Assembly (NCBI GenBank): GCA_010015585.1
Contig: ML975156.1
DNA from: Eremomyces bilateralis CBS 781.70
Lineage: Eukaryota
DNA length: 64,000 nucleotides
Strand: one strand, 5' to 3'
Each line of letters opens with the position of its first letter. Position 1 is the first letter of the stretch. Made by a program: the position numbers and the translations under genes. This document shows, piece by piece, positions 12,160 to 50,419 of this stretch. The notes beneath the pieces are model-generated. The model did no database searches. It was not told the origin of the DNA and saw nothing but the letters and a program-made list of their open reading frames with translations.

Positions 12160-12341
12160 TCGTGGTCGCGAAGGTGTATGTATCAACCAGATGATGTCCG
12201 TATTCATTCCCTATACTGTATGCTATCGCATTTCTACTCCGCAATTTCAAGTCAGAGTTGAAAGTATTCAGAAGTCAACGTCCTGGGTCTCAACTTAAAC
12301 CAACTTATTATATTCATTGTACCTTATGGTAGATCCACGCT

Positions 12342-18574: not shown

Positions 18575-20207
18575 CTACAGCTTCGCCCCCAGCGCCTTCG
18601 AGACCTTCAACTCCTGCCTCACCGCTAAATCCGAAATAATCTCCTCACTCCCCCCACCCACAGAGTACATCCTCAGATCCCTACTAATCTGCTCGACCTG
18701 CCAACCCACCCCCCCTCGCTGATACCCAGCGCCCCCAAGCACCTGCTGCGCCTCCCTACACGCCAGCTCCAGCAACCTCGTGCCATTGACCTTGGACAGC
18801 GCCATGCGGCTCGCCAGCTCCGGGCCCGACCACCCTCGGCGGCTGGCGTGGTAGGCGATCTGCTCCAGCCACGCGAAGTTCGACTCTACGCCCCGCGCGA
18901 TGGTGGCGAATTTGTCACGGATGATCTGGTTGCTTATTAAGGGCGCGCCGAAGGTTTCACGGTCTTGCGCGTACTTCAGGGCCGTGGTGAGGCAGGTGCG
19001 CGCCTTGCGGTTGGAGCCGACGGACATGAGAAAGCGCTCTTTGTTGAAGTCTGGTGTAAGGTGTTAGCATGCGATGGGTGGAGGGAGGAAACAGAGGGAA
19101 GGGGGATGGGGACGGGGCGTACTTGTCATAAGGGTGAGGAAGCCCTTGTTTTCTTGCCCTATTATGTTCTCGACTGGCACCTTGACGTCCTCGAGGTAGA
19201 CCCACGCACTATCTGGAGAAACGATCAGTACCATGCGCCACGACTCGAAAGCCTAAAAGTAGGAACGCTTGTCATACTTGCTGCGTTCGCACCGCTGTTG
19301 TAGATCTTCTTGGCCGAGAAACCGGGCAGATCGGTAGGGATCACCAGCACGGAGACGCCGCCCGCGCCAGGGCCTCCGGTCCTCACAGCGGTTGTCATAT
19401 GTGTTGCTTGAAGTGCGCCCGTGATCCATTTCTGTGCGTAACCATCAGCGTCCACACTGTGTTTGAATGCCCGAATATCTTTCTGAAAAAGTCTCTGCCC
19501 ACCTTTGTCCCCTTCACAATATAGAATTTCCCATCTGGCGTCTTCCTCGCCGTCGTCCTCAGATTAGCCAAATCCGAGCCCCCAGACGGCTCCGTCGCAC
19601 CGAGGCAGAACTGCGTCTCGCCCGTAAAGATGCCTGGCAGCCAGGCCTGCTTCTGCGCCTCCGTGCCGAAGGCGATGATGGGTGGGACGCCGATTTTCGT
19701 GCCACCTCCGGAGAGGGCAGTCAGCACGCCGGACTCAACGCGGGCGGTCTCGTCGGTGAGGATGAGGTGGTGGAAGATGTCCCAGTCTGTGGAGTGGAGT
19801 GTTAGTGGTGTTTTCCTTTTCAAGCTTTTGAGGAATTGCTGGGTTTCCAATTTCATACCATCGGCTGAGATGCCGGCAGGAAGAGAAGTCCCCGGACGGT
19901 ACTTTTGCGGGATGCTCTGGAGTACGAAGCCTGCGCTGACGAACTTCATAGTTTCCTGGGATGCGTGTCAGCCGCCGAGTCTGGTTGCTTTCGCGGTGGA
20001 ACTACGTTTGCGGAGGCATACCTCTTTTGGGACACATCCGGATTCCTCCCACTCCTGCGCGTACGGAAGAACATTCTCGTCGATGTAGTTGCGGGCCCAG
20101 GCGGCCAGCTTTCTGTGCGTGGAGTTGTAGTAGGGCGAGTCGAGGATGTTGTACCAGGCTGGCTCGGCCCAAGGGCTGAGCTCGCCGAATGTTTCTTTTG
20201 GAGACAT
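18575..20207 (-). CDS. Acyl-CoA dehydrogenase with C-terminal PTS1 (AKL)
   Basis: PWAEPAWY..SPYY, FCLGATEPSGGSDLA, KWITG, QVLGGAGY, VGGGSEEI; ends GAKL; multiple introns. Confidence 0.93.
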
Positions 20208-20500: not shown

Positions 20501-20518
20501 TGTCATCTTTTTATGACG
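20501..20518. promoter_or_regulatory. Cluster palindrome TGTCA-N8-TGACG (ACAD/esterase divergent promoter)
   Basis: tgtca tcttttta tgacg. Confidence 0.7.
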
Positions 20519-20914: not shown

Positions 20915-22261
20915 ATGGCAGAATCCCAATACGACCCCAACCCCAACTTCGGCCAATCCGCCTCCCTCTCCGACCGCCTACAATCCGCCTGGCTGCTCCT
21001 CAGTCTCCCCTTTCACCTCACAACTGCAGCAATCACTCGCCCATTCATGAACACCTCTCTTTCCTTCAGGGAGTACATGAGGCGGGCCCTCGTACGCAAG
21101 TACGGCTCCCATCTCCTCCTTCTCCTCCTTCTTTCACTGCGCCAAAACGCGCCTGTTTTAGAGTTGACGTGCCGATCCTAACGTTTGCCTAGCATTCTCC
21201 ACTTCCCTGTGCTGTCCGTGAGCCGAAAAACAGTCAGTCTAGACCCTGTCAAGACATCCCTGCGCTATAAAGCGCTTTTTGATGGCGGGCACCTCAATCA
21301 GCGTATCCAGCGCGCAGACTTCGCTGGAAACTGGGTCTGCAAGGCCAACTTTGACGGCGGAGCCGACGTCGCAAAGTCAGACATCGTAATCTTTTTCATC
21401 CATGGTACGTCCCCTATGGTACCCTCCTCAACCTCTTCTAAGTCCCCACCCCCGCCATTCTAATCCCCAATTTCAGGCGGCGCGTATGTAACCGGCCACC
21501 TACACCAATACATGCCTCTCCTTCTCCGCCTATCCGAGACCATCTCCGCCACCAGGGGCCTTACCGTCTCTATCTTTGCCCTCGACTACTCTCTCGCCCC
21601 CGAACACCCCTTCCCTTGCCAACTTTCCCAAGCTGCAACAGCGTACACGTACCTCACCACTGAACTAAACATTCCCCCCTCTAACATCGTGCTCACGGGC
21701 GACTCCGCGGGGGGTTCGATCGCGCTGTCACTGCTTACACATTTGCGCCAGCCGAATCCCGGGGTGGAAATGGTGCTGCCGAGGGAGGAAAAGCCAAAGG
21801 CACTGTTCTTGCTGAGTCCCTGGGTTAGCCTGGCGAGTGAGAAGGGGTATAAGGAGAAGGAGGCGAGCGATATATTGCATCCCGCGAGTTTGGCGGGGTG
21901 TGTGCGCTACTTGCTGCCTACTCCTGCTGCCGTTGCAGACGCAGCGCCGTATCTTGAGTTCGCCACACCAACGCCTAGTCGCTCGTGCAACTTTAACGAG
22001 TTGTTGCCTGAGCACGTGTGGGTGTCTGCCGGCGAAGACGAGATTTTTCTGCATAATATTACGAGCTTCGTGGATGAAGCCAGGAAGAGTGGGGTTAAGG
22101 TGGAGTACGAGATTGAGAGTGGGAAATTCCATGATTGGCAGCTTTTTGATAGTGTGCAGAATGCTGGGGTGTTTTTGGGGAAGGAGAGGGGGGCGAGAGA
22201 TGAGGGAGAGATGGAGGGCGTGGAGAGGATTGGGAGGGCAGTTGCGGGGGTTTTTGATTGA
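20915..22261 (+). CDS. Alpha/beta hydrolase (HSL-family esterase/lactonase, Say1-like)
   Basis: HGGAY split by an intron, LDYSLAPE..FP, GDSAG nucleophile elbow, LSPW, terminal His in GKFHDW. Confidence 0.9.
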
Positions 22262-22590: not shown

Positions 22591-24579
22591 CTACAGCTTC
22601 GTCTTCGCGGCGGCCGCCCCCCTCCCCGCCTTCTCCTTCCTGGCGGGCAGCTCACTCCTTTGAATTTTCCCCGTCGGGTTCTTGGGAATCGCATCGATTG
22701 CAAAAACGCCCCCTCTTAGCTTCTTGTACGGGCTCACAATCTTATCCACTGACTCCCGGATGCGTTTCAGCGCCGCTTCACGATCGTTCTGCGCCACGGA
22801 GGACGAGAGCACGACGTAGCCAATTGGAACTTCGGTTTGGCCATCTTCGTGCCAGAGGGCGCAGACGGCTGCTTCTTCGACTTCGGGGTGCGAGGCGAGG
22901 AGGTCTTCGAGTTCGGCGGGGGCGACTTGCATGCTGCAACAGTCAGCTATCTGGGCAGCAGATGGTGGATTGTCGGACTTACCCCTTATACTTAATCATC
23001 TCCTTCTTCCGATCCTTAAACCATAAAAACCCATCCTTATCAATTGATAGTGTATCGCCAGTGCGCAGCCAGCCATCATGGAAGGACTCCTGCGTGCTCT
23101 TGGGGTTATTGCGGTAGCCCGCAAACACGGTGGGCGCCTTGATGAGCGCTTCGCCAGGCTCACCTAGCTTGACGTCATTCATGTTGTCGTCAATGATGCG
23201 CATCTTGCTAAGACTGGTGTTAGAGCGGTGTAGTGAGAGACAGGGGAGGGGGAACGTACACGCCTGGGTAGAGCCGTCCTACGCTGCCTGCTTTCTCTGC
23301 TGAGCGCCGGCCGCGGAGCCCAGCGACGGAAACTTCACTCATGCTACGCCAGACGTTAGAAAATGCTTGCAACACTGCAATTGGAGGACAATTTCTGCTT
23401 ACCCGTAACCCTGCGTAATGCTAACCCTTGGCATGATCTGCTGCAGCCTCTGCACAACCTCGACTTGCAGCGCCGCACCAGCGCACATGAGCGTCTTGAC
23501 GGTCGTCAGGTCGAGCTGATCGATGCGCGGGTCCTTGGTAATCGCCACGGCGACTGCGGGAACCATCCTCATGACCGTGCTGCCGACTTTAGAGCAGGAC
23601 TGGATATACTGGTCGTAGACGAATGCCGGAAGGATGGCGATGTAGTTTCCGAGGAAGGCGGGGATGAGAACGCCGCCCAGGAGACCGAATAGGTGTGGGA
23701 CTGCGCGATGTTAGCATGTTAGTCTTGCAGGGTAACGGTTCAATGGGTGTACGGACAGGGACCGAAGAAGACTTCGCGCGAGTCGGCGTTCGCGTCCTCG
23801 GGATTTGCGGTGCGGTTGCTCAATGCATTGGCAATCATTCCGTAGTGGCTCAGGTGTACACCCTTTGGTTTTCCAGACGTCCCGGAGCTGAAAACAACGG
23901 CAGCCGGGAGGGTGCGGTTGTCGATGTTTGACAGGTCGACTGGCGGAATTGGATTTACGGCAGTCGAGCGGAGATACTTGTGTGGGAACTGAGACCGGTT
24001 AGGTTTTGATTTGGTTGGCGTTTGGAGTTGGACTTCTTACGGCAACCGCCGATTGATTGTCAATGTTGATAATTGGTGCCGAAGGAACGGTCGTATGATG
24101 GTGGGCCACTGTCCTCTCAACGACGCCGCGACGATGAGGCTCCACGACAATTAACTTTGCGGCCGCTACTGAAAGATAATGCCCCAGATCATGTTCCGAG
24201 GTTGCAACATTGATTCCGCTGCTCTACATTAGCAAACTTCATTTCGCGACATCACACCTGAAGAAGCTCACATGATCGTTCCACCAAACCACATCACGGC
24301 ATGTGCCAGTAGAATATAATTTGCCGAGTTTGCAGCGTACACAACTACGGCATCGCCCATCTTTAGGTTGAAAGCATGCACCAATTCGGCGGCGAGCTTT
24401 GCGGCATCTCTACGAAGCCCGCCATATGTAATCTTGCTGCCCTTTGGGTCAATGTCCTCGTAGATGACCTTGTCCGGCGAGATATCATCTGGATTGACAT
24501 CGAGCAGGTACTGACCGAGTGATTTGTTGGTTGGGACCAAATATTCGGGATAAATCGAGCTGTAGATTATTGGTGCCAT
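22591..24579 (-). CDS. Acyl/aryl-CoA ligase (4-coumarate-CoA-ligase-like), C-terminal TKL
   Basis: FSSGTSGKPKGV, GWLRTGD, DRKKEMIKYKG, QVAPAELE, IPKNPTGKIQR; many introns. Confidence 0.92.
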
Positions 24580-24887: not shown

Positions 24888-24905
24888 AGTCATCCATTTC
24901 TGACA
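24888..24905. promoter_or_regulatory. Cluster palindrome AGTCA-N8-TGACA (CoA ligase promoter)
   Basis: agtca tccatttc tgaca. Confidence 0.7.
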
Positions 24906-26982: not shown

Positions 26983-27604
26983 GCTGGCATATAATAGTGG
27001 CCGTGAAGATGAGGTGAAGACTCTAGAACTGTTTACTGTAGATAAAAAGCCGTTCGTGAGGTTGGATTAGTTGCCCGCTGTCAAAGTATAAGTTCTCCAC
27101 GCTTTACATACTGCAGCGATGGCCTGTAAAGGTTGTGAGGAGCCATGAGTATACGTAGTAAGCTTCGTCATTCCCGACTACGGAGGCGCAGCAGATCTGC
27201 TAAGCCCCACGCTAATCCTCTCTCTTCTAATTACATGTACTATCCGTGCCCATATCTGTCGCCCCACACCGTCCTACGTACGTAACTAGTATATGAAAAC
27301 GGATAAACAGAATTACCCGACATGCCAGCGCTAAACTATACATGAATTTGGTAGCACACAGTCTACGGAGTAAATGTGTGTGCTACCGAAATTGCCTCGC
27401 CGTTTTCTGCGGACTTTCCGCCTAGGCGAAACGCCTTTGTTTCGTTATCGGCAGTGCCCAAAACTCTCTGCTACGGTGCCAAGACCCTGCGGGGGCTCAC
27501 CACGCCGGATCCTTGCTCTAACTACCGTAATTAGTCCAAACTGGGAGGGATCCGATTTTGGATTCCATCTCCCAAGTTTTGGTATTTCGACCTTCGCAAC
27601 TGCT

Positions 27605-28469: not shown

Positions 28470-29321
28470 TCATAGATTAGAAGAGACCCACTGTGGCTTC
28501 TTCTTTGCTGCAAATGCTGCCAGACCAATTCTAGCATTCTCGCCCCTCATCAGCTTCTCCGCCCACCGATCGCCAGTAAGCTGCGTGGCTCTCTCCACGC
28601 TGGCCGTCTCCCAAGCCTCACGGAGTCCCTGCCGGGTGACAAACGTCGCATCCGGAGAGATATCAGCTATATGTCTCGCCAATTTCAGTGCTTCCTCCAC
28701 GACAGACTCGGGCGTCTGCGCAATCACGTTGACCAAGTGAAACCCCTTTGCCTCCTGTGCTGACAGCCTGCGTCCCGTAAGCCCGATCTCAGAGCCGATT
28801 TGCAGACCACAGTTGCGTACCACTCGCGCGAGTCCTCCAGCTCCGGCATATAGGCCGACAGTTGACTCGGGCAGACCAAACGATGCCTTTGGGGATGCGA
28901 CGACAAGATCGCAGTTTAAGCAGATCTCGAACCCCCCTCCAAGCGCAAAGCCATTGATAGCAGCGATGACCGGCTTTTTCCCAAGCCGTCTGCTCAGAGC
29001 TGCAAAGCCTCCTGGTGGGTGCGAGGATCGAGAGACGTTGGTGGATTCTGCTCGCTTCTTGTTCTGCTCGATGAGGTCTTGGCCGGCGCAGAAGGCCTTC
29101 GTCCCGGATCCGGTGATAATGGCGACGCGTAGGTTGGGCTCGTTGTCGAACCACTGGAAGAGGTCGTGCGCTTCCCAGTGTCCGGCTATCGGGATCGAGT
29201 TCATGGCTTGGGCCCTATCGATGGTGACGAGAAGGACATAAGGACTCGGGTACAAAAGCAAGAATGTCGTGGTTTGAGGAGGAAGCGTAGTAAAGTTCTT
29301 GGCTCCACAGTCTTCCGCCAT
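28470..29321 (-). CDS. Enoyl-CoA hydratase/crotonase family protein (SidH/CaiD-like), C-terminal SNL
   Basis: AFCAGQDL, KPVIAAINGFALGGGFE, FGLPE (both catalytic Glu present); intronless 283 aa. Confidence 0.93.
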   Translation of the reverse strand: MAEDCGAKNFTTLPPQTTTFLLLYPSPYVLLVTIDRAQAMNSIPIAGHWEAHDLFQWFDNEPNLRVAIITGSGTKAFCAGQDLIEQNKKRAESTNVSRSSHPPGGFAALSRRLGKKPVIAAINGFALGGGFEICLNCDLVVASPKASFGLPESTVGLYAGAGGLARVVRNCGLQIGSEIGLTGRRLSAQEAKGFHLVNVIAQTPESVVEEALKLARHIADISPDATFVTRQGLREAWETASVERATQLTGDRWAEKLMRGENARIGLAAFAAKKKPQWVSSNL

Positions 29322-29565: not shown

Positions 29566-29583
29566 TGTCACGTATTGATGACA
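29566..29583. promoter_or_regulatory. Cluster palindrome TGTCA-N8-TGACA (crotonase promoter)
   Basis: tgtca cgtattga tgaca. Confidence 0.7.
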
Positions 29584-30859: not shown

Positions 30860-32057
30860 TCACAGCTTCGACTTATTGCCACTATCTAGCGTCTGCGCAC
30901 CCTCTGCAAGCAACTCCGCGGCTTCCTCAACCATCTCATCCACAATCGTCTTTGCCCTCTTCCTTTCCTTCACCTCCGCCGCCACCTTCCCCATAATCAT
31001 TGGAAACGCATTTTCAGTGAGCTCGGCATCATCAGGAAACTTGTCAAAGTCGTTCTGAAGAGGTATAATACCCTTCGCTTGCAGCGCCTGCATTTCATCC
31101 TGCCGCTTGCTAATCCACCGCTCGATGTACGGCGTCGACCGGACGTGCATCGGGCGCCCGGAGAAGATGGTTGTCCGCACAATTTGCCCATGGTCGGCGG
31201 AGCGCACGGCCTCTTGGTGCTCTGCGCCCGATCCGGACTCCTCACAGAGGATGAACCGCGTGCCGACCCAGATGGCCTGGGCGCCGAGCATCATCGCGCC
31301 TGCGAGGGAATGGCCATTGTGCATGCCGCCGCCGCCGACGAGCTGGATCTCCTTGTCGGTGAACTTGCTGATCTGGCCTTTGATGATCTTCTTCACAGCG
31401 GGGATGAGGATGACTGTTGGAACATCGCCTGTGTGGCCCCCTGCCTCACCGCCGGCGGCACAGAGGAGGTCGGCACCGAGATCGATGGCCCGCTGCGCGT
31501 GCTTGGGATGGCCTATCATGTTCATGTATAAGACGCCTCCGGCATGGAGGCGGTCGACGACTGCTTGAGAAGGTATACCGACAGCGCAGACGAAGAGTTT
31601 TGCTCCACCTTCAACGATGACGTCTATTAAGTCCATGATCCTGCCTTTGTTATAGTCATAGCTATTGAGAGCAAGGTTAGCTTGTTTTCTGAAAGTGGTT
31701 CCCGTAGGAGACCTGCGACCTACTTTGTTGCTCTTGCGCCGTTGCCGACCTTTGGAATCAGCAGATCCACCCCAAACGGCGCATTCTTGTCGACAAGATA
31801 TGACTTCAGTTCTGCGATTGACTCTCGCAGGAGCTGGGGCGTGTACATCCCACCGCCGATAACACCGAGCCCTCCGGCATTTGTGACTGCGGCGGCAAGC
31901 TTGGGTGAAGCGGTCTTGTTCATTCCGGCGAGCAGGACAGGATGCTTAATACCTAGAAGGTCTGTCGCTCCGGTGCGGATCTTCTCTGCGTCGGTACGTG
32001 AGCTGCATAGTCCATTGAAGGTATGAGGAGAGGAGAAGAGTTACGTGGCGATGCCAT
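30860..32057 (-). CDS. Nitronate monooxygenase / FabK-like FMN flavoprotein with PTS1 (SKL)
   Basis: HPVLLAGM, AAAVTNAGGLGVIG, PFGVDLLIP, GGEAGGHTG, WVGTRF; ends KSKL; two introns. Confidence 0.92.
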
Positions 32058-32313: not shown

Positions 32314-32331
32314 TGTCAGAAAAAGATGACC
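32314..32331. promoter_or_regulatory. Cluster palindrome TGTCA-N8-TGACC (NMO/ALDH divergent promoter)
   Basis: tgtca gaaaaaga tgacc. Confidence 0.7.
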
Positions 32332-32784: not shown

Positions 32785-32802
32785 TGTCAGACATTTCCGA
32801 CA
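32785..32802. promoter_or_regulatory. Cluster palindrome variant TGTCA-N8-CGACA (ALDH-proximal)
   Basis: tgtca gacatttc cgaca, one mismatch. Confidence 0.55.
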
Positions 32803-32937: not shown

Positions 32938-34516
32938 ATGGCCGCCAAGCTCATCACAAACGATGTCCCATCAAAGCTATTCCTAAACAACGAGGTCAGG
33001 ATCTTAAACCATACACATGGATACCTAACTGACCAAACTTCCAGTGGGTGGCCGGCTCCGGCCCCTCTCTCACAATCACCAACCCCAAAGACTCCAGCAT
33101 CGTCACCTCTCTCCAGGAAGCCAGTCCGTCCGACCTAGACATAGCCGTCCAGTACGCCACCGAAGCGTTTGAGTCGGGTCCCTGGTCGACCTTCCCCGCC
33201 CTCAAGCGCGCGGAATGCATGAACAAACTCGCCGACCTGCTCGAGGCGCATGTGGAGGAGATCGCCTATTTGGAGAGCGTGGCCTCTGGGCGCCTGCTGT
33301 CCATGGTGAGGTATGAGATCCCGCTTGTTGCGCGGGTATTCAGGTGTAAGTCTGCGTGCACTCGCCTCCCTGCGGTGACGTGAGGTTGGAAATGTGCTGA
33401 CAATACGTAGACTATGCGGGCTGGGCCGACAAAATAAAAGGCGACGCCTACCCCCCCGACGACGGACACTTCAAGTTCGTCTCCCACGTTCCCCTCGGCG
33501 TCTGTGCCGGCATAACCGCCTGGAACGCCTCGCTCCACTTCCTCGCCTGGAAATCCGCCCCAGCGCTCGCAACCGGTAACACCGTCATCATCAAGCCGTC
33601 TGAGAAATCCCCGCTCGGGTCCCTGGCCATCGGCTATTTGATCGCCGCCGCCGGATTCCCGCCCGGCGTTTTCCAGATCCTGCCGGGTGGTGGCGCGCTC
33701 GGGGCGGCGATAAGCGGACATATGCGGATTGCGAAGGTGAGCTTTACGGGGAGTACGGCAACGGGGGTGAAGATCCAGGAGGCAGCGGCAAGGAGCAATC
33801 TCAAGCGTGTCACTCTTGAGCTGGGAGGCAAAAGCCCGTCCATTGTCTTTGACGATGCTGACATTCCATCGGCAGTCCAGTGGGCGGTCAGAGGCATTAC
33901 TATCAACTCGGGGCAGGTCTGTGCTGCTTCTTCGCGTTTGTATGTTCACGAAAGTATTATGGAGCCCTTTATGGGGGCCCTGAAAGATGCATTTGAAGGG
34001 ATTGGAAATGCCCTTGGTGAGGATCCACAACAGCTCGCAACAACGTTTGGTCCGGTGATCGACGAGGAGCAGTTCAAGAAGATTTGGGAGTATATTGAAG
34101 CTGGTAAGAAGTCGAGTGCTCAGCTACTCACAGGAGGATCGAAGTATGACGGAAACGGAACATATATCGCGCCAACAATCTTTGTCAACCCACCCGAGGA
34201 CTCGGTGATCTACAAGGAGGAGATCTTCGGCCCAGTTCTGTGCGCCAAATCTTTCAAGACGGAAGAGGAGGTGCTCAAGTGGGCGAATGACACGCAGTAC
34301 GGACTTGCCGCTGCGATATTCACAAAAGAGCTTTCCAGGGCTTTGAGGGTGAGCTCGAAGCTTCAAGCTGGCACTGTTTCGGTCAATTGCGCTTTGTCAG
34401 TTGGTCCTCAGGTTCCGATGGGAGGAATGAAAATGAGCGGGAGTGGGCGCGAGCTTGGAGAATATGCTCTGAGGCATTACACTGAGCCGAAAACCACTTG
34501 GATCAGGTTAGAATAA
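32938..34516 (+). CDS. NAD(P)-dependent aldehyde dehydrogenase
   Basis: AWN, IKPSEKSP, SFTGST, TLELGGKSP, NSGQVC (catalytic Cys), EEIFGPV, GGMKMSGSGRE; two introns. Confidence 0.95.
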
Positions 34517-34823: not shown

Positions 34824-36839
34824 TCACATTTCAGGGAGTATCCTCGAAGAGTACATCGGATACAACGCCGTAACTGCGAATGTCAGTCACTAAACCGGTG
34901 AGCTGTCAAGGAGAAAACTCACCACCAGTGCAATCAAGCCAAGGGTACGCCATCTCAAACTCCTTACTCAGTTTCCAGCGGTCCAGATTGTCGAGCCCCC
35001 ATCTCGATGACAATGGTTGCTTATCTGCGATAAGCCTGTTAAAGGGCGGTGAGCCCCTTACCGTAGTAGACGATGGCTGGTACCCAGGAAGCGTGGGGTC
35101 TGGCAGCTGCTGCATCGTGTGTTTGAGGCACTGGAAAATTTCCTCGGTGCCTGGCGCGCTTCCGCTACACATGAAGCCCTCAAATTCTGCGCTGAAATTG
35201 CTAGACTCTGAATTGGAAGAACTAAAAAGAGGGTCAGTGGAGGTAAATGCAGGGTAAGGAGGTATGCATACCCAGTTTCAAGTGATGACGCCACTTGAGA
35301 AAACACCCGAGTAATGAACGCATCATGGATGTTGATGGCCGCATGGAACTCTGGAAACTCAATAACCGTATGCAGAACGATATCATGACAGACACCAGAC
35401 AGCTCGTATGTTCCCTGCTTATATATTAGTTGATCCCTTATCGAGGGCCAATTGACAAAACTGATAGCGAGCGGGTGATCCGGGCGCATAAACTGCAGCG
35501 GCGTCGGCTTGAACGGCTCGGAGATTGCAGTCCGATTACTCGCGTTCGCCGCGAGCCGCCACAAAAGTACCTTCTCCATGCTTTCATTCGCACCAACACC
35601 GTATAGGTAGTTGGTTAGCCCGCTCATTTTGGAGGTCAGGCTGATGCCGGCCTTGGCGATGATCGCCACAACGGGGTAGCTGATGCTGTTGTCTAGGGTC
35701 GCGATGGCTGCGCGCAGGGGCTCGTAGCACGAGGACGGCTGTTCGAGACCGCGAGCGACGCCGTGACCTTGCAGACCGAGCTCCTCCAATAGGTACCAAA
35801 GACAGGCTTCTTCGACCCTCCAGACGACCATTTCTGACTGGGACGACAACCAGCGTCTGGGAATTTCGGCTGGGACATGATCTGGGATTTGGGGAAAGAA
35901 CTCGTAGGCCGATGAGAAGTCCATGTCAGCACCCCAATCGAGCAGATTCAGCATGGGATCGATAAAGCAGAGCTCCTTGTGGAATTCGCCTTTTGCGGGA
36001 CCGGGCCCCTCGTCGCCCTCTACGACGTACCCAGACTCAAGCCTGACATTGTATGCAGGTCCACTTGTATGGAGCGCCTTTTGAGCTGGTAGACCAGAAG
36101 CATGGGAGCTGGAGGATCCCAGAGAGCCATGTGGCGTAGAATTGGTTTCAGGAGCCAATGACAGGGACATTCCGTCCAAGTCTCGATGTTTCTGGCGTTG
36201 GAGCTGCATAGCCATCTCTTCATCGTAAGCTGGGATCTGGTCCCTATCATCTCCGGAATCACTTCCAGCATCCCCTACACTCAGTGCCGGATTCAGCGGT
36301 GATCCTGGCGCGAAGCTTGCACTTAGACTAGAGATATTCTTCGCTTTCCGTTTCAACGAGATTTCTTGACTGGTTTTGCTGAATAACTTGTCGAATATCG
36401 CATCATCTAGAGCCAGGGGGTAAGAATCTTGCTGAAAGTCCTAAACTTCCCGAGCAACAGACATACCTGCAACGGCCGACAATGCCGCACTCAGCGAGAG
36501 TGTTTTCTTCCTCATCCTCAACAGCGCCTCCCGCAAATCTTTGTTTTCTTCGATCAACGCCAGCTGATTGCTCATCAGGGCGGCTCTGAGGCTGCTATGG
36601 TCCGCATCCTCACCCGTCGAGATCTTCATGATGCTCGCTAGCGTTTCCAGCTGCTTGGAGTGTGCAAGCTGCCGCTCACGGAGACACTGTTGCGATATCC
36701 GGTTCTGTTCTCTTTTTCGGTTGATCCGTTCCTGCTCATGGCGAGTCTTTCCATCAGTAGCGGTCTGCTTTTTTCTGGCGTTTCCTTGTCTTCCGACGCC
36801 TCGGTTGGAGGTCCGGACGCCAGTGGTATTCGAAACCAT
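34824..36839 (-). CDS. bZIP transcription factor with DUF3425-like C-terminal domain
   Basis: Basic region RKREQNRISQQCLRER, coiled coil LIEENKDLREALL, C-terminal HPLAISFVNWPSIRDQLI and WKLSKEF..YPWL; last exon ends ..ILPEM*. Confidence 0.82.
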
Positions 36840-36975: not shown

Positions 36976-37179
36976 TAGGCCTCGGATGGGGTCGGGTTAT
37001 CTTGGCGTGCGGTTGAGGTGGGTGGGGCTTTATAAACCTAGCACCCTAAGTCCCTAACCCCAACCCAACCCGCAGGCTCAGACAATAATAAGGTAAAACC
37101 CGCCGCGGGTGAGGTTCTTAGCAACCCCAACCGCAAACCCTGGGGTAATGGGGTTAAACCCCGCCCCATCCGAGGCCTA
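36976..37179. mobile_element. hAT-like MITE (204 bp) with perfect 16-bp TIRs
   Basis: TAGGCCTCGGATGGGG (36976-36991) and CCCCATCCGAGGCCTA (37164-37179); interior rich in AACCC/GGGTT; no TSD visible. Confidence 0.7.
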
Positions 37180-37616: not shown

Positions 37617-39098
37617 TCAAAACTTGTACACCAAGCGGCCATTAACTTTGCCTTTCATCATGTCCTCAACCCCTTCGTTGATCTGGCTAATGTCGCGCAA
37701 CTACACGTGTTAGAATTGAATTCTCAAGTTATTAGGCGGTACAACATACTTGGTACACTGGTTTGATACCTGCCGAAGCAGCCAAGGTGAGTGACTTGCT
37801 CAAATCGTCCTTCGTACCCTGGTTCGTAGCTTTGAAACGGTCAACGGTTGTGCACTTTGAAGAGTAAAGCCGTTGGCTATCTTACCAATGAGGGAGAGGT
37901 CGTTCAGGATCATGTTCAAAATGTTAACAGCTACAGGGCCGTTTGGCGCACCAATGGCAATAACCTTTCCATGTTTTGCCGTAATCTTGAAGGCCAGATC
38001 GTAGGCTGGAGCTGCGCCGCTGACCACGACTGTGCAGAGTGTCTTCTCGAACGTGGCTGCGTCACCGGTCATCGAGTTGAAGACCTCCTCAGCTCCCGAG
38101 TCTTTCGCCAGTTGCAGCTTGTCGTTCGCAATATCAACTGTTGGGCCGGTTAAACGTGACGGAATAGCTCTGGAGAAGGATACACATACAAGCGTGGACC
38201 CGGTAGCCCATGGCCTTGGCGTACATGATCGCAAGGTGACCTAGGGAAATATGAGCATGCATGTTCATTATATCAACGGCTAGACATCATTCACCAACAC
38301 CCCCGCTTCCAACGATGTTGAGCAGCGTGCCTCCGGTCTGGAACTGGGAGACCTTCTTCAGGGCACCATATGCTGTTACACCAGCGCACAGAAGCGGTGC
38401 AGCACTAATGCGGAATTCAGTCTCTGGCTCTTTCTGCTCATGTTGAAGGATCCTCAAACCTCTCGTCCGGCAGCCCGTCTGGAATTTTGACCGTAGAAAG
38501 CGGATCCGCGACACAATATTCTGTAAAGCCACCCTGCATACCGTTAAAGCCGACAGCCGTTTTGCCAGAGCAGAATCGATGCTGCCCGCTCAGGCATTCG
38601 CTGCAGTCCACTATCACAGAGTTACAAAGTGTCATAGTTTGGGTAATGGAGGCCACGACGTACGGCAAGTATTGCTCGCTGGCATGAAACCGACTCTGTC
38701 CCCAACGGCAAACCCTCTTACGCCCTCTCCTAGCTCTGCGACCGTGCCGACAGCTAAATGAGACATACATCAGAAGTCTGTGACTCAAGATATGGCCGTC
38801 CCGCAGAGGGGTCGTGGCTTACGTTCGTGACCAGGGCAATACGGGAGGGCTCCGCCGACGTGTCCCTGGATACCGGAAATGTCGGACATGCAGAGCGAGC
38901 AGCAGCTGTTCTTGACCAAGATCTGGTTGGCACCTGGTTTGAGGATTGGCAGATCGTCTCTGATCACGAGAGGTTTGTTGTACTGGGAGATTGTCGTCAG
39001 TAAAGTGCAAGATGTTGCCGTGAGATAAACTCAAGGCGAGAGCAGATGCTACCTACCTCGACTACGGTTGCGCCCCTCATTGTAGTTTTGGTTGCCAT
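37617..39098 (-). CDS. Zinc-dependent medium-chain alcohol dehydrogenase
   Basis: SLCMSD, PGHE, CSECLSG..FC, APLLCAGVTAYGALK, GSGGVG, C-terminal GKVNGRLVYKF; many introns. Confidence 0.9.
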
Positions 39099-39566: not shown

Positions 39567-39584
39567 TGTCATGCTTTCATGACA
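39567..39584. promoter_or_regulatory. Cluster palindrome TGTCA-N8-TGACA (ADH/thiolase divergent promoter)
   Basis: tgtca tgctttca tgaca. Confidence 0.7.
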
Positions 39585-39893: not shown

Positions 39894-41804
39894 ATGGCGC
39901 AACCCGCACTAATTCCTGTTATTGTTGGCGTGGGTGATATCAAAAACAAAAAGTTAACAGTTGAGGATGCGATCGAGCCGATGCAACTAATGCGCCTGGC
40001 AACCATACGTGCTCTTGAAGACACCGGTCTCTCATCCGAAGCTTCGAAACAGTTTCTGGCAAGTGTTGACAGTGTCAGTGTCGTTGCAACATGGACTTGG
40101 AACTATCCTGACCTGCCTGCCCTTCTCTCAGAGAAACTGGGAATAAGCCCTTCTCACAAGACTCTGAGTCCTCACGGCGGAAACTATCCAGTAAGTCTTA
40201 TAGATGAAGCTGCGAGACGGGTTTCGTTGGGACAGAGCCAAGCCTGTATTGTAACCGGTGGAGAGGCCTTGGCTTCCGGTGAGTAGCTGGATGTGATTGA
40301 CTTCTCATCTTAAGAAGCACATTCTAAACCTTTGGCGTTATAGTAAATGCATGTGCTGCCGCGAAGAAATCACCTCCGAGATGGACACCAAGCGATCCAA
40401 AAACGAAAAGTGTGTCTACATCTAAACTGCCAGACACCCAGCAGAGTAGGTCTCAAATGCTAAGCTTCAAAGAAATTTGTGTTCCTAATCTCGTATCATA
40501 GCTCCCGGCTCCGTCCACTCCATTGGGCTACCAATCCACATCTATCCATTATACGAAAACGGATTCCGAGCAAAGCGACGCCAAACACCCGAAGAGAATA
40601 ATGCAGAGTCAGCAAACCTGTACGCAGAATTTGCCCAAGTTGCAGAGCAGAATCCCATGGCTTGGAACTATGGACAACCTGCCAAATCAGCAAAAGAGAT
40701 TGGCACTGTCACCAAAAAGAACAGACTGATATGCTCCCCTTGTAAGGCTCAACTATGGCCCTCACAGGTGATTGCCGCTGACTCCAGTCTCAGATCCGCT
40801 ACTTATGAACGCCTTCAACGCTGTCAACCTTGCTGGAGCATGCCTTTTGACCTCCACCAAATTCGCGACAGAGTTTGGTATTTCTGAGGACAAATGGATC
40901 TATCCGCTGGGCGGCGCAGGGGCAGAAGATAGTGAGAACTGTGTGTTGCGTTTACTTCATCCTTGTACACTCTGTGAGGCCAGGGCTAACCACATGGAAT
41001 CAGTTTGGGAGCGTCTCAACTACTACTCTAGCCCCGCTCTCTCAAACGCACTGGATGCGGCATTAAGAGTTTGTAAACTATCAAAGGACGACATTGAAGT
41101 CTTTGACTTCTATTCATGCTTCCCCATAGTTCCTAAACTCGCATGCCATCATCTCAGTTTGCCTATTGCCAATTCTCCTAAGCCGGTAACCTTTCTGGGT
41201 GGACTAACATCGTTCGGTGGTGCTGGTAACAATTACTCTATGCACGTAAGTTACAATCAGCGGACAATCCCAAAGGCATTCCGCATGATATTGACCATAC
41301 AGTGCAGTCTGTGATCGAAATGGCGCGCGAGTTGAGAAAGGGAGCGCGGCAGTACGGCCTCGTATTGGCAAATGGGGGGATACTCACGAAACACAATGTG
41401 CTCTGCCTTTCCCGCAAACCCCGCAAGGATGGCTCTCGTTATCCCGCAACGAACCCTCTAGCACAGTGGAAACTGGAAGCTGTCATTCCACCAATCGCAG
41501 AGCAGGCAGATGGAAAGGCAATACTTGAGGTACGTGATGAGAGTAGTCTGGATCAATACAATGATTCGAATTGACACGCTTCTAGACATATACCGTCGAG
41601 TTCACCAGGGAAGGGAAGCCGACTCGCGGTCATATTGTAGGATTATTGCAGGGTGGACGTCGCTTTGTGGCCCATCATGGGGACGAAGGTACCCTGCAGC
41701 AGCTTGCAAGTCAAACGAAAGAACAAGTTGGAAGGAATGGGTGGGTGAGGGCTGGAGGCAATGGAAAGAATTACTTTGTGTTTGAAGAAGCGGGACGGCT
41801 GTGA
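39894..41804 (+). CDS. Thiolase-like protein (TLP1-type)
   Basis: PVIVGVG, HGGNYP, TGGEALAS, YPLYEN, FDFYSCFPIVPK, GGLTSFGGAGNNYSMH, LANGG; ends EAGRL; multiple introns. Confidence 0.88.
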
Positions 41805-42352: not shown

Positions 42353-44398
42353 CTACTTCTTTTCGTCCGTGTCCCTGTCTTTGGCTGCCAGGCCCTCTCT
42401 CAGCTTGATGTCAACCTTCTCTGTCATGAGGTGGCCAACTTCGGCAGTTGAAAACGCCGCCAAACAACCAAGGATACCGAAAGTTATGGATACATAGTAA
42501 ACCAGCTTGAACGCATTGATATACGCCATTTTCATGGCAATCAGTCCAGCGTCCACGACTGACTGTGGCAACGTCCGAAGAATTGCGGCGTTTTTCTCTA
42601 CGATTGCTTCGATGGCTTCCGGCAATTCTGCTTGGGACAGACCGGCGCCAAGCAATGCCTTGGCAATGCCAGGTACAAGATTGTGTCCAATTTTGTTCTC
42701 GATGATGGAGGTGTAAATGGTGGTTGCTAAACATCCGCCAATAGAGCGTGCCGTGATGGCCATGGCAGTAGCGATGCCAATATACTCGTGCTTCTGACCC
42801 AGCTGAACCATGGTCGTAGAACATAGCGTTGCGCCTGTGAGGCCCATTCCCAACAAAACGGTAAGCACCGTGCAGCTGATATTTGTATTGATCCCTGTGT
42901 CCATGTTAGCTGAAGAAATTTTACCGCAAGTGAGCTTCAGAACGGGACTGAAAAATCCAAATGCAACTTACCAACATGGGCTTGAGCGCCGCAACAAGCC
43001 GTGAGGAGCATGGCATAAAGCGTGAATTGATACCTTGCAAATTTCCCCCATTTCCTGAATGCCCAACCGCAGATGGGCGAGGCCAGGACACCGCCGGCTC
43101 CAAGAGCTGTACAATACCAGCCGACCTGGATTTGGTCTTTTGCAAACAACTTCTCGACCATCATTGGCCAAAGCAGGATAGTAGAATAGTATAGCATGCC
43201 GGCCAAAGCGGTCGTGAGAAGGACCATTGTGCAACCTCTAATATTTCCCAGGACAACTGGCGGGAACAGTGCATATTCGAGGCTTGCGTGAGCTTCGTAA
43301 AAGCCGAGAGCGACAAGTGTCAAGAATCCAAGAACGATCATGCATATTGGCCCAGCCGATTTCCTAATTCTTGAGTGAGTTTATTTCTCTCGGACTCATA
43401 ATATTCGGATAAAGCGTTACTCACCATGGGAATTCCGATCCCCCAAAGGTAATTCCGAGAAGGAACAGGGTAAGGCCGGCAGCAAAAAGGAATAAGCCAA
43501 TCCAGTCAAGTTCCTTGAACTGCTGAAACTTCGTTTTCCTTTCAGGATTGTAAAACTGATTGATGGGATGGTAAAAGAGTACAATAAGTACCAAGCCGGC
43601 AATATCGAGCGCAAATGGAATCCAGTAACAGTATCTCCAGCTTGCATGAACGACGAGAGATTTGCCTGTGAGCGGCTAGGTAAGAATATTCCATGACATC
43701 TTTGGATGAGATATTACTTACCAATAACCGCAGCAAAGAGTGACGCTGGTGTCAGAGATACTTGGAAAAGACCCAAAGCAAAGGCTCGCTGGCTTCTTGG
43801 CACGACCTCGGCGAGGCACGACCATGCGAGCTGATGCATCGCTGCACCAAACCCGATGAAGATGCTGGCAACGATGATTGTGCTGACCTCGTGCGCGGTT
43901 GCAGCAACGGCGCAGCCTACCGCGCCAATGGTATTGCCAAGCAGGAGGAAGGTCTTTCGACCAAAGATGTCGCCGAGACGTCCGACAAGAGGCGAAAGTA
44001 CGGCCGCTGAGATGATCTGGGCCGTTGCCATCCAGCTGTACGCCGTGGAGGGGCCTGAACTGGGGATGAGCGGAGGAAAAGGAGCTGCGGTGGCAAATAA
44101 GGCTTACCAATATCGTTGTTGATGTCTCCCAAAACGGCGGAAGCAAGTGAGATGACAAAAACATCGCTCAAGTATCCAAACTGAAAGCTCTGGGACATGT
44201 GTTAGAGGGTGAAAAGATTAAAAAAGATGTACTTACCATGCAAGCCAGGAACTTGCTAAGTGTGAACTTGAAATCCCCATCAGGATAATCTTCAACGACC
44301 TCCTCCTTGTCTTCTTCGAGGGAGGATGGAGACCAGTCGCTCTTGGGCTTCATTCCCATCTCTACATGATCCGTTTCCGCTTTATCGTTTGCAGCCAT
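42353..44398 (-). CDS. MFS transporter, Tri12 (trichothecene efflux pump)-like 14-TM family
   Basis: INNDIG, PLVGRLGDIFGRK, AEVVP, IGIA..RSIGG, AFKLVYYVSITFG; multiple introns. Confidence 0.88.
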
Positions 44399-44620: not shown

Positions 44621-44638
44621 TGTCAGGTAACAATGACG
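44621..44638. promoter_or_regulatory. Cluster palindrome TGTCA-N8-TGACG (MFS promoter)
   Basis: tgtca ggtaacaa tgacg. Confidence 0.7.
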
Positions 44639-45821
44639 GAAATGATACTTTCGGTTTTGGACCTTTTCCGTTGACCCGCCACATGGACTAAAGTCTTGGA
44701 GTCCAGCCCTACTTGAAGCCACTAACAGCCCCTCTCCTCTCCACAAATCTGGGCATTATCTGGAGTCAAGAGCGCGAATACAGCGATCGAGTAGCATTAC
44801 CTTCAGTGATGGAGACGAAAGTCTCACCGGTGACCGGTCTTTAGTGACATGCACAGACGATGACCCTTTCCACGTATCGCCTTACCGGTTAGAGTAGTGC
44901 GGAGGTATGACCATGTGGGGGATTCATAGTTTTGGGCTAGTTTAACTGTTTAATGTCCTTTTGCGTGCGGCTAGGCCGCGTGAACAGTAACATGATTAAG
45001 GGGATGAAGAGTGCAGCTCCTGATTTTCAAAAAACAGCCTCAGATCCAACATGCTATCCCTGACATGGCCCACTTAATTTATTCCATTTTAGCGCCGGAT
45101 GGCGCTTAATGGCGCACACTTAGCGTACTAGTAAAGCCCAATCACGAGGCGAACTAAAAATTACTCAGCTTTACGGTCTTTACACCCAAACGCAGCTTCG
45201 ATCCCAGGAGCATCGAAGCAATCAATAATCATGTCGTCTCAACGTATTGTCTAATGTCGTCTATACCGCTCCCATCCGCCCCAGTGGCCTCCTCTATCTC
45301 TGATGATACATCCGACGATGAGCTTGCCACCGAATTTATATCAAGAGCTCGATCCGACGCGACATCCGCTGCAGAAGTGGACCCAGACGTACCAGAGTCC
45401 CCATTACAGCCACCTCCAGGCTCTTCCGCTGGATATCTTAATTGCCCAATTGGGCGCCATGGAGAGGCCTCTTATATAGCTATTGATCCGGCTAGTAAGA
45501 GGCCTCTGGGTCAGACTGGAACTCCATTTCAGAAGATGGAGGGATACGTCTCTTATTACCATAATCCGGAGGCGCTGCTTGATCTCCCGATTAGGATTCC
45601 AGGCCCCATTGATCCTACAGACACCCAAAATGTTCTATGTGGAAATCCTAGCTGTATAGGCTGCGGCATTTCCCATAGTGATGGCCAGTACCTAGATCCA
45701 TTGCTTCATAATCGCCGTCCATCATCCTTCAAATAGCTTATCGAGTGATGGGATCTCCCGCTGGTACTCTTCTCGCAGATATTCCATCAGCGCGTACCGA
45801 CACGGTAAAATTAAAAATATC

Positions 45822-47987: not shown

Positions 47988-48005
47988 TGTCATTAAAATC
48001 TGACA
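47988..48005. promoter_or_regulatory. Cluster palindrome TGTCA-N8-TGACA (BVMO promoter)
   Basis: tgtca ttaaaatc tgaca. Confidence 0.7.
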
Positions 48006-48278: not shown

Positions 48279-50419
48279 ATGCCGCATCTTAACGGAAACG
48301 GAATAGCCAACGGCCATGGCATCGATCACCGCAACCTGCCCAGCATTTTCACACCACAGCGCAAATTGAGCGTGGTTTGCATTGGTGCTGGCGCCTCGGG
48401 GCTGCTGTTGGCATACAAGCTGCAACGACACTTTGATGACTTCGACCTTAAGGTTTTTGAGAAAAATCCAGAAATTTCGGGCACATGGTTTGAAAACAGT
48501 TATCCCGGGTAAGGTCACTTCACTCAGGCGCTGCATCTGCCTCCATGATGGGCGAGAAACCAAGTGGAAAGTCACGATGCTAACTGCAATATTTGCAGCT
48601 GCGCATGCGACGTCCCGTCCCATTGCTACACCTGGTCTTTCGAGCCCAAGACGGACTGGTCCGCCAACTACGCGGGTTCCAAGGAGATTTTCCAGTATTT
48701 TAAGGACTTCTCCACCAAGTACGGTCTGGAGCAGTACGTCAAGCTTGAGCATGAGGTTATCGGCGCGATCTGGGATGCGAAGGTGAGCAAGTGGCATGTG
48801 CAGACGAAAGACTTGCGGACGGGGCGTGTGAGCACTGACTCGGCGCATGTGCTGATCAATGCGGGTGGGATCCTGAATGCGTGGAGATACCCTCCAATTC
48901 CGGGTATTGAGACGTTCAAGGGGGAGCTGGTGCATTCCGCCGCTTGGCCGGAGGATCTTGATCTCAAGGGGAAAGTGGTCGGACTTATTGGGAATGGGTA
49001 AGCGGAGACGGCGGCAAACAATATCATGAATGCATATGAGACTGACCGTTGTGTAGATCGTCCGGTATCCAAATTCTGCCTGCAATCAAGGGCGAGGTCA
49101 AGGAGCTCAAGACCTTCATCCGCGAGGCCACGTGGGTTGCTCCGCCCGTGGGAGAGGGGTTCAAAGCCTTCTCGCCCGAGGAACAGCAAAGGTTCGCCGA
49201 GGATCCAGAGTACCATCTCGCGGAGCGCCGGAAAATCGAGGCGCGCATGAACAGCAGCTTCGCGATCTTCCACTCTGAGTCTCAGCCTCAGAAGGACACG
49301 CGCCAGTATATGAAGGGCCTGATGGAGGAGAGACTGCAAGATGAGAAGCTCTCCAAGCTACTAATTCCGGAATGGTCGGTCGGCTGTCGACGATTGACGC
49401 CGGGCACGAATTATCTCGAGTCGCTGAGCGATGATAATGTCAAGGTCGTCTATGGAGAGATCACACAGATCACGGAGACGGGAGTGATTTGTGATGATGG
49501 TGCTGGAGAGCACTCAGTCGAGGTGCTGATTTGTGCGACTGGCTTTGACACTACGTTCAAGCCCCGCTTCCCCTTGATCGGATCGACTGGAGAACAGTTG
49601 AGCACGCTTTGGAAGGGTAAAGCGTCTCGAGTGACCATTCATACTTGCTCACAGGCTAACGCTGGATGGCAGACGACCCGAAAGCATATTTTGGTATTGC
49701 AGCTGACAAGTTCCCGAATTATTTCTGTAAGCATCGAATGGGTCGCCTCCAAATGATGAAAGCTACTGACGCAAATGTAGTTACACTTGGCCCCAACTGC
49801 CCAATTGGAAATGGACCAGTGCTCATCTCCATCGAGGCCGAAATCGAGTATATCATCCAGATGCTCTCAAAGTTCCAAAAGGAGAACCTTGACTCGTTTG
49901 AGGTCAAGACGGAATCAGTGGATCAGTTCAACGAGTGGAAAGACGAGTTCATGAAAGACACTAGTAAGCAATAGGCCCATAACCTTGCGGCGCATCCATT
50001 ATAGCTGACGTTCATGCTTCTTAGTCTGGACCGAGGAATGCCGCTCGTGGTACAAAGCAGGCAACAGCCTCGGAAAAGTTCTGGCCCTCTGGCCAGGCAG
50101 CACCCTGCATTACTTGGAAACGATCAAGAGCCCACGCTGGGAGGACTGGACCTACAAGTATCCAGCCGGCAAAAACAAATACATATACCTGGGTAATGGC
50201 CACAGCGCAGCCGAAGTTCAGCAGAGCGACCTCAGCTTCTACATCAGAAACAAGGACGACTCGCCGGTTGATCCGGTGTTGAAGAAGCCGGCGGTAAAGG
50301 CCAAGATTGAGGCGGTGCAGGGCGCAATTCCAGGAGTGGTCACGTCTGAAGCCTCGGGGCACTTTGGGGGAGTGGAGGCTCGCTTCCCTATAGGAGTATC
50401 TAGCAAAGTCGCAAGTTGA
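48279..50419 (+). CDS. Type I Baeyer-Villiger monooxygenase (StcW/MoxY-like flavoprotein)
   Basis: GAGASG, GTWFENSYPG|CACDVP, FKGELVHSAAWP (FxGxxxHxxxWP), GNG|SSG, GCRR, CATGFD, CRSWYK; several introns. Confidence 0.93.

What the first reader, a model, noticed from the sequence alone, without database searches (positions are those of the whole stretch)
34824..36839. Embedded bZIP with an atypical basic region is the candidate reader of an everted, widely spaced site
Seen: basic region QNRISQQCLRER and a DUF3425-like C-terminus; I saw no GTCA-N8-TGAC in its own upstream region. Established: bZIP half-sites are TGAC/GTCA, normally abutted as TGA(C/G)TCA or TGACGTCA. Inference: the cluster motif uses the same half-site in everted orientation with an 8-bp gap, which would be an unusual bZIP binding geometry, possibly two dimers or a ligand-controlled arrangement.
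Basis: inference. Interest (0 to 1): 0.7.

Follow-up and report, generated by a model that had tools for sequence, protein, structure and literature searches.

The report
Split-zipper regulator with everted DNA site
A fungal breakdown-pathway gene cluster carries the same spaced palindrome in front of every enzyme and transporter gene, and the regulator gene inside the cluster, a bZIP-like protein with an interrupted zipper, is its likely reader, which would be an unusual way for this protein class to grip DNA.

Summary
The gene (36839-34824, minus) is transcribed and spliced and encodes a 618-aa bZIP-like/DUF3425 protein. GTCA-N8-TGAC occurs once in each of the seven promoter intervals that serve ten catabolic genes (7 seen, 0.085 expected; top of 5,376 dyads). 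It is absent upstream of the regulator and not enriched genome-wide.

The link to this regulator is supported within the genome. Its closest paralog sits in a second monooxygenase cluster with (A/G)TCA-N8-TGAC in all four promoter intervals. A third such cluster, whose DUF3425 bZIP has an unbroken zipper, lacks the everted site and carries an ordinary abutted ATGA-N-TAAT instead.

The basic region is only mildly atypical (a Pap1/Yap-type variant shared by about 90 homolog hits). The split zipper is the odder feature. No binding data and no cross-species test were available. One dimer versus two is open, and ligand control has no support. The DNA geometry has a precedent in yeast Vhr1p, which is not a bZIP. 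The scan noted a motif beside a DUF3425 bZIP in another genome (e1-9948327).

Reader about 0.72; interest 0.55.

The parts
34824..36839 (-). Regulator gene, 618 aa, bZIP-like N-terminus plus DUF3425; exons 36467-36839, 35272-36406, 34923-35221, 34824-34873
36678..36704 (-). Basic-region core N46-R54 (NRISQQCLR): N-x7-R, with S at +3, Q at +4, L at +7
36618..36650 (-). Short first zipper segment (L64, L67, A68, M71), two heptads, followed by a linker of variable length
36468..36587 (-). Displaced second leucine zipper (residues 85-124) with N99 and a conserved RMRKK basic patch
35349..35567 (-). DUF3425 match (residues 405-477), inside a folded C-terminal domain of about residues 309-614
20501..20518 (.). 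Site 1, divergent promoter of acyl-CoA dehydrogenase and esterase
24888..24905 (.). Site 2, upstream of the AMP-binding (acyl-CoA ligase-like) gene
29566..29583 (.). Site 3, upstream of enoyl-CoA hydratase
32314..32331 (.). Site 4, divergent promoter of the NMO-family flavoenzyme and aldehyde dehydrogenase
32785..32802 (.). Extra one-mismatch site about 150 bp upstream of aldehyde dehydrogenase
39567..39584 (.). Site 5, divergent promoter of Zn-alcohol dehydrogenase and the thiolase-like gene
44621..44638 (.). Site 6, upstream of the MFS transporter
47988..48005 (.). Site 7, upstream of the Baeyer-Villiger-type monooxygenase
18575..20207 (-). Acyl-CoA dehydrogenase (putative target)
20915..22261 (+). 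Abhydrolase_3 esterase or lactonase (putative target)
22591..24579 (-). AMP-binding enzyme (putative target)
28470..29321 (-). Enoyl-CoA hydratase (putative target)
30860..32057 (-). Nitronate monooxygenase / FabK-like flavoenzyme (putative target)
32938..34516 (+). Aldehyde dehydrogenase (putative target)
37617..39098 (-). Zn-alcohol dehydrogenase (putative target; 3' end approximate)
39894..41804 (+). PRK08257-like acetyl-CoA acetyltransferase, thiolase-like (putative target; 3' end approximate)
42353..44398 (-). MFS transporter, TRI12-like (putative target)
48279..50419 (+). FMO-like, Baeyer-Villiger-type monooxygenase (putative target)

Best explanation
The embedded bZIP-like/DUF3425 protein is likely the pathway-specific switch of this catabolic cluster, predicted to place one basic arm on each TGAC half of the everted GTCA-N8-TGAC site found in front of all ten enzyme and transporter genes. 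Shown: the spliced gene, the sites and their positions, and the match between regulator subtype and motif type at three clusters of this genome. Inferred: binding; activation rather than repression; and a pathway of alcohol/ketone oxidation, Baeyer-Villiger ring or chain opening, ester hydrolysis, CoA ligation and beta-oxidation, with the substrate unidentified. Inferred with least support: how the arms reach half-sites whose centres are 12 bp apart and point outward. I lean about 55:45 to one dimer, in which the basic helix with its two-heptad stub folds back on the displaced second zipper so that the arms sit about one turn apart and RMRKK faces the A/T-rich spacer. The alternative is two dimers.
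For: (1) One site per promoter interval for 10 of 10 catabolic genes; none for the regulator or for the unknown ORF at 25912-27066. XanC shows the same pattern, with the motif in target promoters and not in its own (PMC8406171, passages). (2) Local, not global: GTCAK-N6-MTGAC has 73 sites genome-wide against 74 for the reversed control, 6 of them in this 27.5 kb. (3) Replicate: among the fetched stretches the best other hit to family profiles is at G000:C1:407-409k (E 4e-11 and 7e-19; NRLSQKAVR, same split coil). It lies among cutinase, monooxygenase, SDR, MFS and ADH genes. All 4 promoter intervals there carry (A/G)TCA-N8-TGAC: 4 ATCA variants against 0.11 expected (P 6e-6, 12 variants tested; 0 of 3,000 random sets) plus 1 exact site. 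Four of the 36 genome-wide ATCA-N6-GGTGAC sites fall in 8.4 kb there. (4) Controls: the 5 other DUF3425 loci have 0-1 such sites within 10 kb, against 1.1 expected. One is also a monooxygenase cluster (C1:1836-1854k). Its regulator has DRKAQHAFR and unbroken heptads, and it carries 7 abutted ATGA-N-TAAT sites against 0.24 expected. That fits the published link between Phe at position 17 and Yap-type half-sites (PMC3334620, passages); the window's protein has Leu there and TGAC half-sites. (5) The inner base is A in 9 and C in 4 of 14 half-sites. The DUF3425 bZIP A7370 binds a probe containing CTGACA with Kd 10.6 uM (PMC13113314, passages, section 7 part 1 and probe row). (6) Split coil: helices 30-74 and 79-124 in the model; the R54-L106 distance varies from 45 to 59 in 73 of 74 homologs.
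Against: All co-occurrence comes from one genome: two everted clusters and one abutted cluster. The metagenome scan gave a single 1.6-kb contig, too short for the test. The paralog-cluster variant was noticed by eye before it was counted. With the loose pattern over 20 kb it is only 5 against 1.1 (P 0.006), and spacer 15 gives 4 there. The abutted motif of the third cluster was also found post hoc. The outer base is A in 10 of 14 half-sites and TGACAG occurs in 5 of 14, which suits a TALE homeodomain (recalled), and the genome has 4 Homeobox_KN matches. The A7370 probe holds only one half-site and binds weakly. Covariation for a fold-back hairpin is weak: P 0.002 overall, but 0.42 away from the linker and 0.70 near it. 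Split-looking coils also occur in three D-type paralogs that have no everted sites nearby. Relatives in Fusarium and Neonectria are fused by gene models to metal ATPases, so the subfamily is not confined to monooxygenase clusters.
Confidence: 0.72

Rival explanations
1. Same reader, two dimers. Each dimer binds in the ordinary scissors grip, with one arm on a TGAC half-site and the other on the outer flank, and the two are held 8 bp apart by tetramer contacts through the second coil or DUF3425. This is a sub-case of the 0.72.
For: In the paralog cluster 5 of 10 outward 7-mers are within one mismatch of TGA(C/G)TCA, and two sites read as TGAATCA-N8-TGACACA. N-x7-R-x9-L-x6-M is in canonical register. 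A7370 binds a single half-site.
Against: In the window's cluster 0 of 14 outward flanks are within one mismatch of an AP-1 or CRE site (read from the table), yet the spacer is exactly 8 in all 7 sites.
Confidence: 0.32
2. An unlinked factor, such as a TALE homeodomain protein that binds TGACA(G) as an everted pair, reads the site; the embedded gene acts indirectly or on something else.
For: TGACA in 10 of 14 and TGACAG in 5 of 14 half-sites. Four Homeobox_KN matches in the genome. The everted geometry is awkward for a classic bZIP.
Against: No genome-wide excess: 73 against 74 and 146 against 130. None of the four homeobox matches is on this contig. The second cluster has a variant (AATCA...GGTGAC) that largely lacks TGACAG, and the third monooxygenase cluster has a different motif that matches its own regulator.
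Confidence: 0.18
3. A Vhr1-type factor reads the site, since yeast Vhr1p is listed with AATCA-N8-TGAYT.
For: Same geometry (PMC7466126, table row). One paralog-cluster site (L004:347-364) matches that consensus exactly and two differ by one base.
Against: No Vhr1 (PF04001) match in G000 at E up to 1 (the genome may be incomplete). Vhr1 is not among the 25 of 53 families shown for the 26 N-terminal sequences. Vhr1 lacks the bZIP Asn and Arg, which this protein has.
Confidence: 0.04
4. The sites are chance matches or remnants of a repeat, not a regulatory element.
For: The motif has only 8 fixed bases and was defined after the fact.
Against: Bonferroni 3e-8 over all dyads; one site per promoter interval; unrelated flanks.
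Confidence: 0.02

Closest known systems
Pap1/Yap-type fungal bZIPs (PDB 1gd2 Pap1; PDB 7aw7 'BZIP domain-containing protein', recalled as HapX)
   Same: Best solved-structure hits of the N-terminal profile (E 6e-4 and 6e-5); QNRxxQ and N-x7-R.
   Different: Ser for Ala at +3, Leu/Val/Ala for Phe at +7, and a conserved Cys at +6. The zipper breaks after two heptads; there is a DUF3425 domain. Those factors bind abutted or overlapping half-sites.
A7370 of Curvularia lunata, a DUF3425-bearing bZIP (PMC13113314; passages, section 7 part 1, probe rows of the supplement)
   Same: bZIP plus DUF3425; an activator; binds a probe with a CTGACA half-site.
   Different: It lies outside its target cluster. 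The reported site is a single half-site, ACGGCTGAC, with no everted partner at N8 in the 30-nt probe. Its basic-region subtype was not seen.
AfXanC, the cluster-resident bZIP of the Aspergillus fumigatus xan cluster (PMC8406171; passages, section 15, supplement passages)
   Same: Resident bZIP with a non-standard zipper; a GTCAG-containing motif in all target promoters but not its own.
   Different: The site is AGTCAGCA with no everted TGAC in the five A. fumigatus flanks shown. The cluster is biosynthetic, and DUF3425 is not mentioned in the main text.
Vhr1p and its element AATCA-N8-TGAYT, Saccharomyces cerevisiae (PMC7466126 table row; PMC3334620 passages; the original 2006 paper was not read)
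   Same: The same everted TCA-N8-TGA geometry; Gcn4-like half-sites; a reader with two putative basic segments.
   Different: A VHR domain, not a bZIP, lacking the Asn and Arg; biotin regulation; no PF04001 match in G000.
BIP1 of Magnaporthe oryzae (PMC10833574; passages and S3 Table rows; 7 of 17 supplementary files not searched)
   Same: Fungal bZIP missed by Pfam that binds paired TGACTC-type motifs in a bidirectional cluster promoter.
   Different: Its two motifs are in direct orientation in the probe; 266 aa, with four zipper repeats.

Membership tests
bZIP | Basic region N-x7-R/K | tested here: met
   N46-R54; N and R in 88 of 90 profile hits, the other 2 being gaps
bZIP | First zipper leucine nine residues after the Arg | tested here: met
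   L64; the position is hydrophobic in 97% of 74 homologs
bZIP | Uninterrupted heptad zipper of four or more repeats directly after the basic region | tested here: not met
   Two heptads, then a variable linker, then a second zipper at 85-124
bZIP | Pfam bZIP_1 above the curated cut-off | tested here: not met
   14.7 bits against 27.6; 23 of 26 N-termini give some match at E up to 10
bZIP | Dimeric scissors-grip DNA binding | not testable with these tools
   Needs a protein-DNA structure or binding assay
Pap1/Yap subfamily | Gln at +4 | tested here: met
   Q in 87 of 90
Pap1/Yap subfamily | Ala at +3 and Phe at +7 | tested here: not met
   S in 73 of 90 at +3; L 38, V 13, A 12, F 7 at +7
DUF3425 (PF11905) | Profile match above cut-off | tested here: met
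   43.7 bits against 27.1; Atlas neighbours are DUF3425 clusters
Cluster-specific regulator (XanC/AflR pattern) | Shared motif in every target promoter, regulator gene inside the cluster | tested here: met
   10 of 10 catabolic genes, 7 of 7 promoter intervals
Cluster-specific regulator (XanC/AflR pattern) | Binding, and loss of expression in a deletion strain | not testable with these tools
   Bench test
Cluster-specific regulator (XanC/AflR pattern) | Motif and regulator co-occur across species | tested here: inconclusive
   Only a 1.6-kb ortholog contig was found; tested instead among 7 DUF3425 loci of G000
VHR (Vhr1, PF04001) | VHR domain in the candidate or elsewhere in the genome | tested here: not met
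   No match in G000; the candidate keeps the Asn and Arg that VHR lacks
TALE homeodomain site | TGACAG core and a homeobox gene tied to the cluster | tested here: inconclusive
   TGACAG in 5 of 14 half-sites; four unlinked Homeobox_KN matches; the core sequence is recalled

The most novel reading that the evidence does not exclude
The NRxSQQCxRE subfamily of DUF3425 regulators is a bZIP derivative with a different DNA-binding architecture. The basic helix folds back on a displaced leucine zipper, so that one dimer reads outward-facing TGAC half-sites a full turn apart, with a second basic patch on the A/T-rich spacer. Each family member then serves as the private switch of a neighbouring catabolic cluster. 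This would converge on the yeast Vhr1 element and give a motif rule for finding such regulons across ascomycetes.
Probability: 0.3. Interest if true: 0.8.

Novelty: new variant of a known kind. Interest (0 to 1): 0.55.

Why it matters
DUF3425 bZIPs are numerous in filamentous fungi (10 are listed in one F. fujikuroi table) and almost uncharacterised: 11 papers in the library hold the term. This locus gives a sharp, testable protein-site pair, a paralogous pair with a shifted half-site for swap experiments, and a third pair as a conventional control, all in one genome. If one dimer reads the everted site, it extends the known bZIP binding modes. Either way the motif offers a handle on an undescribed fungal monooxygenase and beta-oxidation pathway.

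Tried and rejected
Cross-species co-occurrence: the one metagenome scan returned a single 1,647-bp contig covering the 3' part of an ortholog. Homodimer prediction for residues 25-150 gave no answer (score 0.20, mark 0.32). The single-sequence fold was poor (pLDDT 38.9). Fold searches of the alignment-based model found no clear relative: Foldseek had no hit at E up to 0.001, and weak nuclear-receptor ligand-binding-domain rows (E 0.9-5) did not appear among the 50 VIA rows shown. The VIA lists were filled by the N-terminal helices, so the C-terminal domain is barely tested. Several top rows are proteins I recall as helical hairpins, but a monomer model can fold that way for lack of a partner. 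My first covariation test looked strong and weakened under block controls.

Isolated motif matches elsewhere did not reveal a trans regulon. Those examined lay in or near unrelated genes, and a close pair at C9:296k lies in the arms of a long inverted repeat. Two further weak protein hits were ordinary NRAAQRAFR bZIPs. GTCA-N13-TGAC (5 hits) is scattered and not tied to promoters. BIP1 and XanC sites were checked as precedents for an everted N8 pair and are not. No listed run is on record as RNA; X1 is a guess, although its contigs skip introns. Depth figures were not used.

Paper searches that found no bZIP on an everted N8 site. The last gave the Vhr1p row and three prokaryotic listings, seen as listings only. 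Supplements not seen (7 of 17 files for PMC10833574) could bear on the precedent claim. Only 60 of the window's 170 long ORFs went to the first Pfam scan; a pattern scan of all six frames found no convincing second regulator in the cluster.

Full report
OBSERVATION. The window is fungal, with intron-bearing genes, and lies at G000:C8:62001-126000. The gene runs from 36839 to 34824 on the minus strand in four exons. A contig of run X1 skips all three introns, and the 618-aa record P0001 is identical over exon 2. DUF3425 scores above the Pfam cut-off and bZIP_1 below it. No GTCA-N8-TGAC or TCA-N8-TGA lies within 1,000 bp upstream.

THE MOTIF. GTCA-N8-TGAC occurs 7 times against 1.26 expected. 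The sites fall one to each promoter interval of ten genes: acyl-CoA dehydrogenase and esterase (divergent), an AMP-binding enzyme, enoyl-CoA hydratase, an NMO-family enzyme and aldehyde dehydrogenase (divergent), Zn-alcohol dehydrogenase and a thiolase-like gene (divergent), an MFS transporter, and a Baeyer-Villiger-type monooxygenase. The far edge lies about 240-485 bp from the ATG, and about 620 bp for the aldehyde dehydrogenase, which also has a nearer one-mismatch site. In an unbiased scan of 5,376 dyads over 5,985 bp of upstream DNA it ranks first (7 against 0.085; Bonferroni 3e-8). The half-site reads (A/C)TGAC(A) and the spacer centre is A/T-rich. Genome-wide there is no clear excess over reversed controls (73 against 74; 146 against 130). 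So this is a local regulon. The enzyme set suggests oxidation of an alcohol or ketone, oxygen insertion, ester hydrolysis, CoA ligation and beta-oxidation. That reading is inference from families; the substrate is unidentified.

THE PROTEIN. The basic region keeps N-x7-R and the R-x9-L spacing and aligns best to Pap1 and 7aw7. It differs at base-reading positions: Ser at +3 (73 of 90 profile hits), Cys at +6 (76 of 90), and Leu, Val or Ala for Phe at +7. It is a conserved subfamily signature, found from Dothideomycetes and Sordariomycetes to Myxozyma, and not a private oddity. The more unusual feature is the coil. There are two heptads, then a linker that makes the R54-L106 distance vary from 45 to 59 residues, then a full second zipper with N99 and a conserved RMRKK. 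The alignment-based model gives helices 30-74, 79-124 and 127-147, a disordered middle and a confident C-terminal domain, which has no clear solved relative.

No second regulator gene was found in the cluster. A cross-species test was not possible, so I used the seven DUF3425 loci found in this genome. The closest paralog (G000:C1:407-409k; NRLSQKAVR; same split coil) sits among cutinase, monooxygenase, SDR, MFS and ADH genes. All four promoter intervals there hold (A/G)TCA-N8-TGAC. Four are ATCA variants against 0.11 expected (P 6e-6 with 12 variants tested; 0 of 3,000 random sets), and one is exact. All four variants share GG before TGAC and account for 4 of 36 such sites genome-wide. I saw two of them by eye before counting, and the loose count over 20 kb is weaker (5 against 1.1). 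The five other loci show 0-1 sites; four of them have D-R-x-A-Q basic regions, and none was seen for the fifth.

A THIRD CLUSTER AS CONTROL. One of those five loci, pointed out by note e1-7704779, is also a monooxygenase cluster. Its regulator has DRKAQHAFR and unbroken heptads, and the cluster carries seven abutted ATGA-N-TAAT sites against 0.24 expected (post hoc). This agrees with the published role of Phe17 in Yap-type half-site choice (PMC3334620, passages). Monooxygenase clusters therefore do not share one motif. Each has one that fits its resident regulator, which argues against a common outside factor. The sample is three clusters in one genome.

GEOMETRY. By established bZIP structure, a scissors-grip dimer cannot put both arms on outward-facing half-sites 12 bp apart. 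Two solutions remain. In the first, one dimer folds its basic helix back on the displaced zipper. For this: the fixed spacer, the lack of AP-1- or CRE-like outer flanks in 14 of 14 window half-sites, and the pairing of split coil with everted site and unbroken coil with abutted site. Covariation support is weak, and three D-type paralogs also have split-looking coils. In the second, two dimers sit side by side. For this: 5 of 10 outward 7-mers in the paralog cluster are within one mismatch of an AP-1 site. I lean 55:45 to the first. Ligand control through DUF3425 is plausible for a catabolic regulator, but nothing here tests it.

COMPARISON. Resident bZIPs that switch gene clusters are known (XanC), and DUF3425 bZIPs have been shown to bind DNA (A7370; TeSrdA, PMC12765306, passages). 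The DNA geometry has a precedent in the yeast Vhr1p element AATCA-N8-TGAYT, but Vhr1 is not a bZIP and has no match in this genome. My searches found no bZIP reported on an everted N8 site; the library lacks most subscription papers. The protein works like a cluster-specific bZIP and is a DUF3425 member, but it fails the continuous-zipper and Pfam tests for a canonical bZIP.

VERDICT. The motif is real and almost certainly regulatory. The embedded gene is the likely reader (0.72). The binding mode is unresolved. This is a new variant of a known kind, with interest 0.55; it would be 0.8 if the single-dimer fold-back mode holds (probability 0.3).

Noticed in passing
G000:C1:400-413k (L003:4850-10000, L004:1-8340): Second catabolic cluster (cutinase, Baeyer-Villiger-type monooxygenase, SDR, split-zipper bZIP/DUF3425 paralog, sugar-type MFS, Zn-ADH) with an AATCA-N6-GGTGAC variant of the motif.
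   Followed up: yes
G000:C1:1837753-1854001 (L024, L025): Seven ATGA(G/C/T)TAAT sites across the OYE/AtuA/MFS/bZIP-DUF3425/monooxygenase/lactonase-like/GST cluster; the likely site of its resident regulator.
   Followed up: partly
window 36976-37179: Single-copy G+C-rich 23-bp inverted repeat (158 nt between the arms) with several AACCCC/GGGGTT words in the regulator's own upstream region; it may be how the regulator itself is controlled.
   Followed up: partly
window 45158-47568: Tc5/DDE_1 transposon remnant, split over several frames, between the MFS and monooxygenase promoters; both flanking promoters keep their site.
   Followed up: no
window 25912-27066 (-): 385-codon open frame inside the cluster with no Pfam or NCBIfam match and no motif upstream.
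   Followed up: partly
L054:5800-6470 (G000:C9:295.8-296.5k): Long inverted repeat, MITE-like, between a laccase and a non-reducing PKS, with GTCATTA(A/G)CACGTGAC in both arms.
   Followed up: partly
P0035, P0049, P0094, P0137, P0162, P0163, P0048: Fusarium and Neonectria members of this regulator subfamily are fused by gene models to a heavy-metal P-type ATPase, and one protein to an aldehyde dehydrogenase, which suggests other conserved neighbourhoods; the basic region has a conserved Cys.
   Followed up: partly
window sites at 20502 (minus), 39568, 44622: G(A/G)AAT follows TGAC(A/G) in three of seven sites; possibly an extended or second element.
   Followed up: no
window 9321-14223: Amidase, isochorismatase and cytosine/purine permease genes next to the cluster, without the motif.
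   Followed up: no
G000:C8:425-450k (L029-L032): Nine TGA(C/G)TAA words within 12 kb of another DUF3425 gene, against 2.4 expected; possibly a fourth regulator-motif pair.
   Followed up: no
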